A stretch of 64,000 nt of DNA from Malacoraja senta (taxonomy: Eukaryota), in NCBI GenBank assembly GCA_038087875.1, contig CM075989.1, forward strand, positions 18,416,001 to 18,480,000, in the 5' to 3' direction. A model generated the notes under the pieces. The model was not told the origin of the DNA, ran no database searches, and saw only the letters and a list, made by a program, of their open reading frames with translations. Made by a program: the position numbers and the translations under genes. Shown here in pieces: positions 11,642 to 16,659 of this stretch (positions are counted from its first letter, which is position 1; each line of letters starts with the position of its first letter).

Positions 11642-11783
11642 CTCTTCTTCTTCTTGCGTACGGCGTGCACAGCCTAAAGTTGTAGGACAACTTGTTCTAT
11701 TTGATCTTACTTGATTGTGCACGCCAGGTTGATTGCATTCGTCGAAACAGGGCGGACCCCGTGAAGGTTGCAATCTCCCACCC
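11642..11783 (-). mobile_element. Short non-autonomous retroposon (~140 bp) with 5' HDV-like ribozyme fold and (GAA)n tail, copy 1
   Basis: Flanked by 11-bp TSD GGGTCTCAACC (11631-11641, 11784-11794). Minus strand ends ...GCTGTGCACGCCGTACGCAAGAAGAAGAAG. Homologous to the split copy at 15355-16370. Confidence 0.85.
11731..11783 (-). ncRNA. Minimal HDV/CPEB3-like ribozyme fold (copy 1, lacks G1)
   Basis: GGGUGG-GA-GAUUGCA(P2)-ACC(P3)-UUCACGG(L3)-GGU-CCGCCCU(P1')-GUUUCGA-CGAA(J4/2)-UGCAAUC(P2'). Confidence 0.75.
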
Positions 11784-12796
11784 GGGTCTCAACCTGAAAC
11801 ATCAACTAACCATGTTGTACAGAGATGCTGCCTGACCTGCTGAGTTACTCCAGCACTTTGTGTAGTTTTGTGCTTAGAACAAAATCAGTAATTAACAGAA
11901 AAGACAACAATAAAAACATCTGGCCCTCAAACTCAATAGATTTCTTCTGACTTGGATTTATTTTCAGTTGGTAACATGATGAATGTTGGAAATATTACTT
12001 GTTCAATACCATTAAGACTTGACTTCTATTGTGCAAATAAGCACGTTATATAACCAAGCTCACCTTGAAACACAGACAAAATATACGACTTGGCTGACAG
12101 TGAGATTTAAGGTGATCATTAAACTGCAACGCTCTGATGCAGATGATTTCCACTTGGGATTCTGATGGGACAACTACCTCCTGTAAACATTCAGATTGGC
12201 ATGAGTTTCCCCCTTTCTCTCTCCTGCTGCACTGAACGGAGATGAGGAATTAGTTACGACAAGCTTCTTACTCAAGGAAATTCATCTTCATCCTTGTTAT
12301 CAAATCCCACCATGGCTTTGCCCTTCCCCTCCCTTTAAACTCACCCAGTCCCACAGCATTCAGTTATATCTCTCCTTCTCCAGTCCTGCTCTTGTGAACA
12401 CATCTAACCATTAGGAGGGATACTGCCTCTGGAATGATATTCATTCAAAGGACGCGGGCTTTGAAGGCTGAGCCCGCATTTAATTGATGATAGACTCAAA
12501 GTGCCGGAAGAACTCAGCGGGTCAGGCAGCATCTCTGGAGAAAGACGATGGGTGACATTTGGGCCGGAACCCTTCTGCAGACGGATGAAGTGTTCCGACC
12601 TGAAATGTTACCCATCCTTTTATCTCCGGAGATACTGCCTGATCCGCTGAGTTACTCCAGCACTTTGTGCCTATCTTCGGTATAAACCAGTATTGCAGTT
12701 TCTCCCACCTTTTAATTGCCCATCCCTAATGGCCCTTGAGAGGCGTGGTGCAATGTTTTGTTGAACTGCTGCAACCCTTGAGGGATGATACACTAA

Positions 12797-14600: not shown

Positions 14601-15414
14601 TGAAGTCAATGTGAATATTTCTTCAAATGTTCATGGCATGATTTGTTCAACAATATTTATCACTGACACAAGTTGATTAATTTTGCCATCAAATATTAAT
14701 ATTAAGCTATACTATGTAAGAACAGGCATCATTCAGATTACAAAGTCAATTTTAAACTACTAGTCTGAGAAATATCGTCTGCCCATTCTCTCCACAGATC
14801 CGCTGAGTTCCTCCAGCACTTTGTGTTTTGCTTATGATCCCAGCATCTGCAATTCCATGTGTCTCCATTGAACCACTGGATCAGCCGTATGAATATGAGC
14901 TCTTCATATTTCGATTGGGTAAGTCTGTCAGAGAAAAGGCTGCTGTTTGGCCTTTCTACTAGTTGCTGGCAGTCTGAGTCTGCAGAGTTCCCCTCGCACA
15001 TCAATAATATTGCCTTTCTGGGTGTGGAAGGATAGCAGGCAAACGCACAGTTGTTCTTGAACGCATTGCCGGGGATCCAACTTTTGTGTTGGTCGGGTTG
15101 CCCATCATAGATTCATAGGCTCAGTGGATATTATAGTGAGCTAGTTTAAAATCATCGCCACGGACAATATGTTTCATTTAGTTCCACGTGAGCGTGTGGT
15201 GTGGATGGGCAGTATTCAAGAACTCGCTCATTCAAACCTTGAGCCATATAGAATCTTGCAATAATAGAGCCATATAGCACTGAAATAGGCCGTTCAGCCC
15301 AACTTTCCCTTGCTAACCCAGATGCCCCATTTGTCTACATATTTTCCCAAATCTTCTTCTTCTTTCGTGTGGCGTGCACAGCCTAAAGTTGTTGGACAAC
15401 TTGTTCTATTTGAT

Positions 15415-16277
15415 GGTACACAAAAATGCTGGAGAAACTCAGCGGGTGCAGCAGCATCTATGGAGCGAAGGAAACAGGCAACGTTTCGGGCCGAAACCCT
15501 TCTTCAGACTGATAGGGGGTGGGGAGAAGAAAGGAAAAAAGGCGGAGGAGGAGCCCGAGGGCTGGGGGAGGGGAGGAGACAACCAGATGGCTGATGAAGG
15601 GGAGGGGACAGCAAGGGCTAGCAGAATTGGGAGAATTCAATGTTCAAGCCCCCAGGATGTAGACTGCCCAAGGTGCATTTCCTCCAATTTCCGGTGTTGC
15701 TCGCTGTGGCCATGGAGGAGACCCAGGACAGAGAGGTCAGATACGGAATGGGAGGGGGAGTTGAAGTGCTGAGCCACCGGGAGGTCAGGTTGGTTACCAA
15801 GCGGAGGCTTGCCGATCGTTTTAGCCGAACACCTCCGGTCGGTCCGCAATAACCAACCTGACCTCCCGGTGGCTCAGCACTTCAACTCCCCCTCCCATTC
15901 CGTATCTGACCTCTCTGTCCTGGGTCTCCTCCATGGCCACAGCCAGCAACACCGGAAATTGGAGGAAATGCACCTCATATTCCGCTTGGGCAGTCTACAT
16001 CCTGGGGGCTTGAACATTGAATTCTCCCAATTCTGCTAGCCCTTGCTGTCCCCTCCCCTTCATCAGCCCTCTGGTTGTCTCCTCCCCTCCCCCAGCCCTC
16101 GGGCTCCTCCTCCGCCTTTTTTCCTTTCTTCTCCCCACCCCCTATCAGTCTGAAGAAGGGTTTCGGCCCGAAACGTTGCCTGTTTCCTTCGCTCCGTAGA
16201 TGCTGCTGCACCCGCTGAGTTTCTCCAGCATTTTTGTGTACCTTCGATTTTCCAGCATCTGCAGTTCCTTCTTTAAC
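15415..16277 (+). mobile_element. Penelope-like retroelement 3' end (GIY-YIG C-terminus + pLTR) with inverted 5' duplication
   Basis: 15797-16039 encodes TKRRLADRF/AEHLRSVRNNQPDLPVAQHFNSPSH...HLIFRLGSLHPGGLNIEF, typical of PLE GIY-YIG. 15415-15796 is a near-perfect inverted copy of ~15850-16241. 16-bp TSD ACTTGTTCTATTTGAT (15399-15414, 16278-16293). Confidence 0.9.
16145..16182 (+). ncRNA. Minimal type I hammerhead motif in Penelope pLTR
   Basis: CTGAAGA-AGGG-TTTCGG-CCC-GAAACGTT: CUGAnGA and GAAA cores, short stem II, palindromic ACGU in place of stem III. Mirrored on the minus strand at ~15476-15512. Stem I is poor in this copy. Confidence 0.55.
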
Positions 16278-16316
16278 ACTTGTTCTATTTGATCTTCCGT
16301 TTGTGCACGTCGAGTT

Positions 16317-16370
16317 GATTGCATTAGTCGAAACAGGGCGGACCAGGTGAAGGTTGCAATCTTCCACCCC
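16317..16370 (-). ncRNA. Minimal HDV/CPEB3-like ribozyme fold (54 nt, copy 2)
   Basis: GGGGUGG(P1)-AA-GAUUGCA(P2)-ACC(P3)-UUCACCU(L3)-GGU-CCGCCCU(P1', G1.U wobble)-GUUUCGA-CUAA-UGCAAUC(P2'). G1 abuts the TSD. Confidence 0.8.
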
Positions 16371-16659
16371 TCCCAAATCTAAAACCTTTCCTATTCATGT
16401 ACATGTCCAAGTGTCTTATAAATGATGTTATAGTACCTGCCTCGACTACCTCTTCTGGCAACTCATTCCATATACGCACCACCCTCTGAAAAAGTTGCCC
16501 TCCAGGTCCATATCAAACCTTGCCCCTCGAGTACCTTAAACATATGTCCCCTGGTTCTTGATTCCCTTACTCTGGGTGAAAGGCTCTGTGCGTTCACCCC
16601 ATCTATTGCTCTCATATCTCAAACCACCACAGGGAACTTCATGTTGTTGCCATTCTTAC

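What the first reader, a model, noticed from the sequence alone, without database searches (positions are those of the whole stretch)
16294..16380. Ribozyme-headed ~140-bp retroposon: minimal HDV/CPEB3-like ribozyme whose predicted cleavage site is the element's 5' end
Seen: the minus strand 16370->16317 reads GGGGUGG AA GAUUGCA ACC UUCACCU GGU CCGCCCU GUUUCGA CUAA UGCAAUC. It has a 7-bp P1 with G1.U wobble, a perfect 7-bp P2, a 3-bp P3, a 7-nt L3 and a C-N-A-A J4/2. P4 is reduced to about U-UUCG-A. G1 is the first base inside a 10-bp TSD. There is no tRNA head or A/B box. Known: this is the HDV-family nested double pseudoknot; the CPEB3 ribozyme L3 is UUCACGU, one base from each copy here. 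HDV-like ribozymes define the 5' ends of R2, RTE and Ingi/L1Tc elements. Inference: a promoterless SINE-like family that cuts its own 5' end out of host transcripts and is mobilised by a LINE via its tail. The tail ...GCC(G/A)(T/C)ACG(C/A)AAGAAGAAG suggests Vingi/Ingi or RTE. I do not know of a description in elasmobranchs but cannot confirm novelty.
Basis: partly seen in the sequence, partly recalled or inferred. Interest (0 to 1): 0.92.

Follow-up and report, generated by a model that had tools for sequence, protein, structure and literature searches.

The report
Ribozyme-headed short retroposon family
A 140-base mobile element, present in thousands of copies in this fish-like genome, begins exactly at the predicted cutting site of a stripped-down self-cleaving RNA that is a close relative of the ribozyme in the mammalian CPEB3 gene.

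Summary
The minus strand 16370->16317 reads exactly as reported and fits the HDV-type nested double pseudoknot. It heads a dispersed non-LTR retroposon family, here called S1. The genome holds 3,435 tail matches and 658 exact head 29-mers, against 0 for the controls. Copies carry (GAA)n tails and 8-15 bp target-site duplications. In 32 of 38 independent copies with a clear duplication, it ends within -1..+2 bases of G1.

The window copy is not a clean 140-bp copy. An 863-bp palindrome of a Penelope-like element splits it, and its tail lies at 15353-15414. A second, simple copy lies at 11643-11783.

Rfam does not reach threshold, but its three best hits are all HDV-family models, with CPEB3 first. 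A covariance model built only from other ribozymes of this genome ranks the two window heads first (E 8e-4 and 7e-3). Across families, 17 of 26 pairs show double changes.

The genome also holds a 3.1-kb RTE-like LINE. Its 5' end is a full-size CPEB3-type ribozyme (64 bits, cut-off 35) and its 3' end is ...ACACGAAAAGAAGAAG. It is the likely partner.

Self-cleavage and mobilisation are inferred, not shown. I rate it a new variant of a known kind.

The parts
16371..16380 (-). upstream copy of the target-site duplication (ATTTGGGA; 10 bp if the ambiguous AG is counted)
16317..16370 (-). 54-nt minimal HDV/CPEB3-type ribozyme fold; G1 = 16370 = first base of the element
16364..16370 (-). P1 5' strand GGGGTGG (pairs with 16335-16341)
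16355..16361 (-). P2 5' strand GATTGCA (pairs with 16317-16323)
16342..16354 (-). P3 ACC / L3 TTCACCT / P3' GGT; the C of L3 (16349) pairs with G 16334 (P1.1)
16335..16341 (-). P1 3' strand CCGCCCT
16328..16334 (-). G of P1.1, then GTTTCGA: P4 reduced to one U-A pair around a 3-4 nt loop
16324..16327 (-). J4/2 CTAA with the presumed catalytic C (16327)
   Evidence: C kept in 27 of 28 simple copies
16317..16323 (-). P2 3' strand TGCAATC
16278..16316 (-). variable linker of the element body, up to the break; its last 16 bases (16278-16293) are one copy of the direct repeat ATCAAATAGAACAAGT
15415..16277 (.). 863-bp insert: two 5'-truncated copies of the 3' part of a Penelope-like retroelement, head to head (arms about 16245-15830 and 15796-15412, 93% complementary)
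15353..15414 (-). 3' part of the element: second copy of the 16-bp repeat (15399-15414), two small hairpins, ...GCCACACGAAAG and the (AAG)n tail
15345..15354 (-). downstream copy of the target-site duplication
11643..11783 (-). second, uninterrupted copy of an older subfamily (90% identity); head 11731-11782, L3 TTCACGG, J4/2 CGAA, tail GCCGTACGCAAGAAG, duplication GGTTGAGACC(C)

Best explanation
S1 is a ~140-bp non-autonomous non-LTR retroposon. Its first 54 nt are a P4-less, CPEB3-type member of the HDV-like ribozyme family.

Proposed cycle:
(a) A copy is transcribed as part of a longer host or neighbouring transcript (inferred).
(b) The head folds into the nested double pseudoknot and cuts 5' of G1, freeing an RNA that starts exactly at G1 (inferred from the fold and from the genomic 5' ends).
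(c) An RTE-type LINE enzyme of the same genome takes the RNA's 3' end, ...ACG(A/C)AAG(AAG)n. It copies the RNA into a nicked target by target-primed reverse transcription, which leaves an 8-15 bp duplication and a (GAA)n tail. The duplications and tails are shown; the identity of the enzyme is inferred.

S1 is not an internally deleted LINE. Its body is unrelated to the LINE found. The window copy belongs to a sub-lineage that carries an 863-bp hairpin of Penelope-like sequence and still transposes.
For: Family and mechanism of insertion:
- There are 658 exact head 29-mers and 3,435 tail-pattern matches; the reversed-pattern controls give 0.
- Of the first 20 tail-anchored places, 19 reach a head (18 are simple ~140-bp copies and 1 is a chimera) and 1 is truncated to ~35 nt.
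- 38 of 42 independent copies have a duplication of 10 bp or more. It ends at offset 0 from G1 in 18, at +1 or +2 in 10 (a G shared with the G run), and at -1 in 4.
- In contigs of public runs the likeness stops at G1: 396, 48 and 26 contigs have unlike sequence before it.

Fold:
- The sequence is exactly as described.
- Rfam's three best families on 63 nt are CPEB3 (17.2 bits, E 0.0094), HDV-F-prausnitzii and HDV.
- Model R1, built from 11 ribozymes of other families of this genome, ranks the two window heads first of 13 matches in 64 kb. Scores are 22.8 bits (E 8.4e-4) and 19.4 bits (E 6.6e-3); the next match has E 0.33.
- On 13 rows, 89.2% of cells pair, against 37-46% with partners slid. 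17 of 26 pairs change on both sides, and 0 of 500 shuffles reach the observed values.
- Within S1, common variants in the head lie at position 8 (J1/2), position 45 (the N of J4/2) and position 32 (U.G<->U-A). The 39-nt linker has 7 such positions.

Partner:
- RF00622 finds 51 matches in the genome, 39 over the cut-off, of 59 candidates scored.
- The best matches head a 3.1-kb element with one frame carrying Exo_endo_phos and RVT_1. It has its own duplications starting at G1 and the 3' end ...CAAAGACACGAAAAGAAGAAG.
- That element has 4 exact heads against 160 exact 3' ends.
Against: - No cleavage was measured, and no RNA data could be used: all runs offered were contigs.
- S1's head is far below Rfam's gathering score (17.2 against 35). 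It is not found at E<=10 when 251 nt or the whole window is searched. R1 with default filters finds nothing.
- Calibration of R1 is rough. The row choice for includes three near-identical S1 rows and single decayed copies.
- P4 is all but absent and P1 has two G.U pairs, so activity may be low.
- S1 and the LINE share only L3 and the last ~14 bases. The abundant older S1 subfamily ends ...CCATACGCAAGAAG, which is less like this LINE.
- The positional comparison is biased, because copies were picked by motifs in positions 10-31 and in the tail.
Confidence: 0.75

Rival explanations
1. The head is a ribozyme relic or doubles as an internal promoter. In this reading the 5' end at G1 is a transcription start, as with the Pr77 region of L1Tc/NARTc that is both promoter and ribozyme, and self-cleavage plays little or no part today.
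For: Cleavage is untested. P4 is lost and P1 holds two wobble pairs. The abstract starts of PMC3383444 describe a 77-nt region that is both promoter and HDV-like ribozyme, so a dual role has precedent.
Against: The catalytic core is kept through old, intermediate and young subfamilies while the adjoining linker changes. This core is G1.U, C22-G37, L3 and the C of J4/2. A related LINE and a second short family keep the same core with different helices. No tRNA, 7SL or 5S likeness was found.
Confidence: 0.12
2. S1 is a short internally deleted element (SIDE-like) of a LINE not yet seen, one that carries the same head and the same last 50-60 nt.
For: R2 SIDEs are built this way (PMC3414825, abstract start). 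Full-length LINE heads are rare: 4 exact heads for the LINE found. A rare parent could therefore be missed.
Against: 18 of 20 tail-anchored places are simple ~140-bp copies and none is a longer element with a frame. Only 60 genome matches have the S1 core followed by a base other than T. All 12 that I fetched are ordinary S1 copies with a point change. There is no body likeness to the LINE found.
Confidence: 0.1
3. S1 is copied by the Penelope-like element's enzyme, not by an RTE-type LINE.
For: There are two different S1/Penelope-like chimeras, each with its own duplications. One is the palindrome-bearing lineage and the other is L043.
Against: The Penelope-like 3' ends in the window stop at ...CTTCTTTAAC without a (GAA)n tail. 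S1 and the RTE-like LINE share the ...ACGAAAGAAGAAG type of end and the size range of their duplications.
Confidence: 0.05
4. Chance resemblance to the HDV fold.
For: The Rfam score is below the family thresholds.
Against: In addition, the predicted cleavage site coincides with the element's 5' end in dozens of independent copies.
Confidence: 0.01

Closest known systems
HDV-like ribozymes at the 5' ends of RTE, R2, baggins and L1Tc retrotransposons (Ruminski et al. 2011 was not held and is recalled; it is described in passages of PMC6765202 and PMC7761336)
   Same: The ribozyme sits at the very 5' end, so self-cleavage would release the element RNA from a co-transcript. The LINE found here fits this picture directly.
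   Different: S1 has no reading frame, is 140 bp long and has almost no P4. The host is a vertebrate, probably an elasmobranch.
R2 SIDEs and NARTc (non-autonomous elements that keep the partner's HDV-like ribozyme; PMC3414825 and PMC3383444, abstract starts)
   Same: They are non-autonomous, have a ribozyme at the 5' end and use the partner's enzyme through the 3' end.
   Different: Those are truncated or internally deleted versions of their LINE. S1 shares with the LINE found only L3 and the last ~14 bases, and its helices P1, P2 and P3 have their own sequences.
Mammalian CPEB3 ribozyme (Rfam RF00622)
   Same: L3 UUCACGU, CCCUGU after P1, J4/2 C(G/U)AAU and a G1.U start are shared. The genome's LINE-borne relatives score 48-64 bits, and some share the P4 sequence CAGAUUCU...GAAUCUG.
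   Different: S1 scores 17.2 bits against a cut-off of 35, lacks P4, is multi-copy and mobile, and is not a single conserved intronic site. [quoted passage not shown]
Minimal HDV-like ribozymes without P4 (metagenomic drz, theta ribozymes; PMC10879173, passage)
   Same: The double pseudoknot is kept with P4 removed, at about 50-55 nt.
   Different: Those come from metagenomes and gut phages, next to tRNAs, and the cited passage gives their origin as undetermined. S1 is in a vertebrate retroposon.
Hammerhead-bearing SINEs of schistosomes and retrozymes (PMC6765202 passages)
   Same: They are short non-autonomous retroelements that process their own RNA with a small ribozyme.
   Different: They use a different ribozyme class, a tandem or circular RNA logic, and a Pol III promoter in the schistosome case.

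Membership tests
HDV-like (drz) ribozyme fold | P1 of 6-7 bp starting at the cleavage-site base, with G1.U | tested here: met
   GGGGTGG/CCGCCCT. G1 is kept in 24 of 28 and U36 in 28 of 28 simple copies. P1 pairs 5-7 change with compensation between families.
HDV-like (drz) ribozyme fold | P2 pseudoknotted with P1; 3-bp P3 closed by a 7-nt L3; P1.1 C-G | tested here: met
   In one search, 6 of 7 P2 pairs and 2 of 3 P3 pairs show double changes, and C22-G37 is invariant in 13 of 13 rows.
HDV-like (drz) ribozyme fold | J4/2 with the catalytic C followed by N-A-A | tested here: met
   CTAA, CGAA or CAAA. The C is kept in 27 of 28 copies.
HDV-like (drz) ribozyme fold | P4 helix | tested here: not met
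   Only U-UCG-A remains. P4-less natural forms are on record (PMC10879173 passage), so P4 is not strictly defining.
HDV-like (drz) ribozyme fold | Site-specific self-cleavage 5' of G1 | not testable with these tools
   No raw RNA reads were offered.
Rfam CPEB3_ribozyme RF00622 | Score at or above the gathering cut-off (35 bits) | tested here: not met
   The S1 head scores 17.2 bits. The LINE heads score 48-64 bits and the second short family 36.3 bits, so those meet it.
Classical SINE (Pol III head) | Head derived from tRNA, 7SL or 5S | tested here: not met
   ARAGORN finds 0 genes. No such Rfam family appears at E<=10.
Non-LTR retroposon inserted by target-primed reverse transcription | Dispersed copies, variable target-site duplications, simple-repeat 3' tail | tested here: met
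SIDE (internally deleted LINE) | Both ends identical to those of the autonomous element | tested here: not met
   Only L3 and AAAGAAGAAGAAGA are shared with the LINE found. No longer S1-headed element was seen.
RTE clade (for the candidate partner LINE) | A single frame with endonuclease/exonuclease/phosphatase and RT domains, and a very short 3' UTR ending in a simple repeat (definition: abstract of PMC2887409) | tested here: met
   One frame with Exo_endo_phos, Exo_endo_phos_2 and RVT_1. The frames in L061 and L062 run to about 35-45 nt before the (GAA)n end.
RTE clade (for the candidate partner LINE) | Placement inside the RTE clade in an RT phylogeny | not tested
   No named reference sequences were at hand. 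Relatives of 50-63% identity in amphioxus, sea urchins, fishes and insects carry no clade names.
Penelope-like element (for the insert) | RT plus C-terminal GIY-YIG endonuclease | tested here: inconclusive
   GIY-YIG scores 20 bits, E 8.4e-4, below the 22.6 cut-off, on the longer piece in L043. A skate protein 81% identical to the window piece carries RVT_1. The 88-aa window piece alone has no Pfam hit.
Penelope-like element (for the insert) | Hammerhead ribozyme in the terminal repeat | tested here: not met
   No hammerhead family appears at E<=1 in 15400-16290. A CTGAAGA...GAAAC motif that I recognised by eye is recalled knowledge only.

The most novel reading that the evidence does not exclude
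The heads of S1, of a second short family (S2) and of the RTE-like LINEs in this genome are non-mammalian members of the CPEB3 ribozyme lineage. On this reading the single conserved ribozyme in the mammalian CPEB3 intron is a domesticated 5' end of an RTE-type retroposon. A vertebrate genome has also pared the same ribozyme down, at least twice, to a ~54-nt P4-less core that still supports thousands of insertions. In addition, the long-lived S1 source copies may carry an 863-nt hairpin that reverse transcription skips again and again. This would explain why hairpin-bearing and simple copies share at least four subfamily haplotypes.
Probability: 0.5. Interest if true: 0.85.

Novelty: new variant of a known kind. 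Interest (0 to 1): 0.72.

Why it matters
HDV-like ribozymes at LINE 5' ends, and non-autonomous elements that inherit them, are established. What is new here has three parts.

First, S1 is a vertebrate non-autonomous family that is not a cut-down LINE. It carries its own ribozyme, reduced to the P4-less minimum. Until now that form was reported from metagenomes and gut phages, with unknown origin (PMC10879173 passage).

Second, the family gives a natural series of thousands of dated copies of a 54-nt ribozyme whose product end is recorded in the genome.

Third, following it led to multi-copy sequences that pass Rfam's CPEB3 cut-off at the 5' ends of an RTE-like LINE. [quoted passage not shown] If these are true relatives, the origin of the CPEB3 ribozyme becomes directly testable.

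My searches of the held library found no description of either point. Ruminski 2011, Webb 2009, Dfam and Repbase could not be consulted.

Tried and rejected
- Rfam at gathering score on the whole window gave 0 matches. Rfam at E<=10 on 251 nt also gave 0. The HDV-family hits appeared only on 63 nt.
- R1 with default filters gave 0 matches; filters had to be switched off.
- RNA evidence was not obtainable. The look-up of sequencing runs offered only Logan contigs, and the 'RNA?' runs are guesses, one marked 'probably DNA'. These give no starts, ends or strand, so they say nothing about cleavage in vivo. One metatranscriptome contig holds a head-head tandem with upstream flank; I draw nothing from it.
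- The search of earlier findings returned nothing for this genome or sequence.
- The search for an S1-headed LINE with a full P4 gave 60 pattern matches, and all 12 fetched were ordinary S1 copies.
- L034, a tail without a head, has no RT frame upstream, only a collagen-like frame. It is a 5'-truncated copy.
- Elements of the L055 type share only ~109 nt with each other and gave no frame or tail.
- No hammerhead was found in the insert. The nine hits there, eight microRNA-precursor models and one lncRNA model, are all sub-threshold; the strong microRNA ones are artefacts of the long palindrome.
- The 88-aa insert frame has no Pfam hit.
- Ruminski 2011 and Webb 2009 are not held.
- I considered and dropped a Pol III SINE reading.
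- I did not search for an Ingi/Vingi partner, and nothing of that kind turned up.

Full report
**What is at the coordinates**

P1 (7 bp, G1.U and U5.G), P2 (7 bp) and P3 (3 bp) can all form in the order that defines the HDV nested double pseudoknot. A C in L3 faces a G after P1 (P1.1), J4/2 starts with C, and P4 is reduced to one U-A pair around a 3-4 nt loop. The 36-mer is unique in the window, with 0 expected from 100 shuffles.

The window is G000:C13:18416001-18480000 of a 1.94-Gb assembly.

**The window copy is interrupted**

BLAST of the region against related loci shows that the element continues only to 16278 and resumes at 15414. Between these points lies an 863-bp insert (15415-16277), flanked by a 16-bp direct repeat ATCAAATAGAACAAGT (16278-16293 and 15399-15414). 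The insert is a palindrome with arms 93% complementary.

The element's 3' part reads ...GTTGTCCAACAACTTTAGGCTGTGCACGCCACACGAAAG(AAG)n and ends at about 15353. ATTTGGGA follows it, and the same 8-10 bases precede G1.

A second, uninterrupted copy of an older subfamily lies at 11643-11783 on the minus strand (90% over 141 columns).

**It is a large retroposon family (S1)**

- A 151-nt query found 1,726 first-look candidates, of which 40 were scored. Most matches begin at query position 10-11, where G1 is position 11.
- An exact 29-mer of the head occurs 658 times, and the reversed control 0 times.
- A degenerate 33-place tail pattern occurs 3,435 times, with control 0. Most matches are of an older type ending ...GCCATACGCAAGAAG.
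- I fetched the first 20 tail-anchored places. Of these, 18 are simple ~140-bp copies with the head, one (L043) is a chimera that also has the head, and one (L034) keeps only the last ~35 nt.
- I dropped 6 rows as duplicates, namely the window's own locus and loci that share a flank. Of the 42 independent head-tail pairs left, 38 have a target-site duplication of 10 bp or more.
- Relative to G1, that duplication ends at 0 in 18 copies, at +1 in 7, at +2 in 3, at -1 in 4 and at -2 in 2. The other four are +6, -5, -6 and -15.
- The plus offsets are Gs shared between the target and the G run. The four outliers are a target that itself contains GGGGTG, two partial 5' duplications that themselves start with GGGG, and one copy with 5 extra bases.
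- No copy continues upstream with family sequence.
- In contigs of public runs laid on a simple copy, likeness stops at G1 in 396, 48 and 26 contigs of three runs, each with unlike sequence before it.
- Twelve further copies seen look the same.

**Is the head a ribozyme of the HDV family?**

Rfam gives nothing at gathering score on the window, nor at E<=10 on 251 nt. On 63 nt of a typical copy, the only three matches among 4,227 families are CPEB3_ribozyme (17.2 bits, E 0.0094, cut-off 35), HDV-F-prausnitzii (16 bits, E 0.23) and HDV_ribozyme (13.3 bits, E 3.5). The CPEB3 consensus shows L3 UUCACGU, which is also the reading of most S1 copies.

Searching the genome with RF00622 gave 51 matches at E<=1e-3 among 59 candidates scored. 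Of these, 39 are over the cut-off, the best at 64.2 bits, and there were none in 14 control genomes. These belong to other repeat families.

I aligned 13 ribozymes: three S1 rows, one row of a second short family, one row of a LINE, and eight single copies of further families, some decayed. I then counted the pairs of the double pseudoknot:

| Measure | Observed | Control |
|---|---|---|
| Cells forming a standard pair | 89.2% | 36.7-45.6% with the 3' partners slid by 1-3 columns |
| Pairs changing on both sides | 17 of 26 | 0 of 500 shuffles reach this |
| Covariation score | 0.461 | 0 of 500 shuffles reach this |
| Further pair types | (not distinctive) | 193 of 500 shuffles reach it |

By helix, the pairs that change on both sides are P1 3 of 7, P2 6 of 7, P3 2 of 3 and P4 6 of 8.

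S1's own helices differ from all the others yet still pair, while L3, CCCUGU and C-N-A-A-U are shared.

As an independent test I built a covariance model from the 11 non-S1 rows (P2+P3+P4). With filters off over the 64-kb window it lists 13 matches at E<=10. The top two are 16317-16370 minus (22.8 bits, E 8.4e-4) and 11731-11782 minus (19.4 bits, E 6.6e-3), and the third has E 0.33. With default filters it finds nothing. The E-values are rough by the tool's own account.

Within S1 (28 simple copies), the frequent variants in the 54-nt head are position 8 (J1/2, A/G), position 45 (the N of J4/2, T/G/A) and position 32 (U.G<->U-A). The next 39 nt have seven such positions. This comparison is biased, because the copies were selected by motifs in positions 10-31 and in the tail, so I treat it as consistent rather than as proof.

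No tRNA-like head is present.

**The likely partner**

The best RF00622 matches head a 3.1-kb element. Four copies are 97.3-98.2% alike over about 3,140 bp.

- It has one long frame, 940 aa in L059, which stops about 190 nt earlier than the frames of L061 and L062. Those two run to some 35-45 nt before the end.
- The frame carries Exo_endo_phos, Exo_endo_phos_2 and RVT_1.
- Its duplications end right before GGGGATC..., which is G1 of its ribozyme. Its 3' end reads ...CAAAGACACGAAAAGAAGAAG.
- This matches the definition of RTE elements in the abstract of PMC2887409. I did not make a phylogeny.
- Relatives of 50-63% identity occur in amphioxus, sea urchins, fishes and insects, mostly on contigs of 3.0-3.4 kb.
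- The genome has 4 exact heads against 160 exact 3' ends of this LINE, the usual 5' truncation of LINEs. S1, by contrast, is mostly full length.

S1 shares with this LINE only L3 and the terminal AAAGAAGAAGAAGA. S1 is therefore not an internally deleted LINE, and the partnership rests on the type of 3' end, the size of the duplications and the shared ribozyme lineage.

**The insert and the hairpin lineage**

The insert is two 5'-truncated copies, head to head, of the 3' part of a retroelement. One arm encodes an 88-aa frame that is 81% identical to a Leucoraja erinacea protein carrying RVT_1. A longer piece in L043 has a weak GIY-YIG match of 20 bits, below the cut-off. Other copies in the window end at ...CTTCTTTAAC. 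Penelope-like is the best label. Rfam finds no hammerhead there.

The same head-insert-tail arrangement, with the same junctions but arms of varying length, occurs at other loci with their own duplications. Examples are L002, L003, L006, L007, L010, L011, L013 and L014. The composite therefore transposes.

Composite and simple copies share at least four subfamily haplotypes. A single insertion event cannot explain this unless long-lived source copies carry the hairpin and lose it repeatedly between the 16-nt repeats, or unless the RNAs recombine. This is unexplained.

**What is known**

HDV-like ribozymes at the 5' ends of R2, RTE, baggins and L1Tc, and their role in freeing the RNA from co-transcripts, are described in passages of PMC6765202 and PMC7761336. 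Non-autonomous elements that keep such a ribozyme are known too: R2 SIDEs (PMC3414825) and NARTc (PMC3383444), of which I saw the abstract starts. PMC6765202 also says that some SINEs use hammerhead or HDV-like ribozymes.

P4-less minimal forms are reported from metagenomes and gut phages, with origin undetermined (PMC10879173 passage). [quoted passage not shown]

My searches found no description of a ribozyme-headed short retroposon in cartilaginous fishes, nor of CPEB3-type ribozymes on retroposons. The primary papers of 2009 and 2011 were not held, and repeat libraries could not be consulted, so the novelty is provisional.

**Verdict**

Shown: - the fold and its covariation with relatives;
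- the family, its tails and its duplications;
- the coincidence of G1 with the genomic 5' end;
- an RTE-like LINE with the same kind of head and tail.

Inferred:
- self-cleavage;
- transcription by read-through;
- mobilisation by that LINE.

Noticed in passing
G000 loci L051-L062, L073-L082 (e.g. L052:1501-1584, L081:401-479): Multi-copy sequences pass Rfam's cut-off for the 'mammalian' CPEB3 ribozyme: 39 of 59 scored candidates, up to 64 bits. Some share even the P4 sequence with the mammalian consensus. They sit at the 5' ends of an RTE-like LINE and of older repeats.
   Followed up: partly
L063-L072 (e.g. L072:401-463 minus): A second ribozyme-headed short family (S2, about 175 bp). It has its own P1 and P2, P4 reduced to TTCCAC, J4/2 CAAT and the tail ...GACTCGATAAGAAGAAG, with clear target-site duplications. 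It scores 36.3 bits on RF00622. Some copies have a 6-bp P1.
   Followed up: partly
window 15415-16277 and loci L002-L022: Hairpin-bearing and simple S1 copies share at least four subfamily haplotypes. The arm length of the palindrome varies between loci from about 88 to about 415 bp.
   Followed up: partly
L043:689-1540: A different S1/Penelope-like chimera. It has the S1 head to position ~81, then a sense-oriented 3' part of the Penelope-like element including the GIY-YIG region, then the S1 tail from position ~90, all within one target-site duplication.
   Followed up: partly
window 11784-11795 and L002 upstream flank: Two independent S1 insertions sit in the same target AGGTTGAGAC(C/G)C inside another repeat (...GGTTGAGACCCTTCTTCAGACTGA).
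   Followed up: no
L025:1491-1641: One DNA contig of run X1 bridges this site without the element (it skips 149 bases, with 12 letters fitting both sides). This is a possible insertion polymorphism and so a hint of recent activity.
   Followed up: no
L005:1485-1520; L049: These copies begin with a partial duplicate of the first 6-17 nt of the head before the full head. A metatranscriptome contig (run X19) shows a head-head tandem.
   Followed up: no
L009, L012, L015, L017, L018, L020, L021 (unplaced contigs) and L004/L008: The same composite copy with the same flanks recurs on several contigs, which points to segmental or tandem duplication of a larger unit rather than to separate insertions.
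   Followed up: no
window 15689-15957: Sub-threshold Rfam matches to plant and animal microRNA precursor models (up to 128 bits, below their cut-offs) arise only from the long palindrome.
   Followed up: yes
window 16381-16600: S1 copy 1 is inserted next to another abundant repeat (...GGTGCGTATATGGAATGAGTTGCCAGAAGAGGTAGTCGAGGCAGGTAC...), which I did not identify.
   Followed up: no
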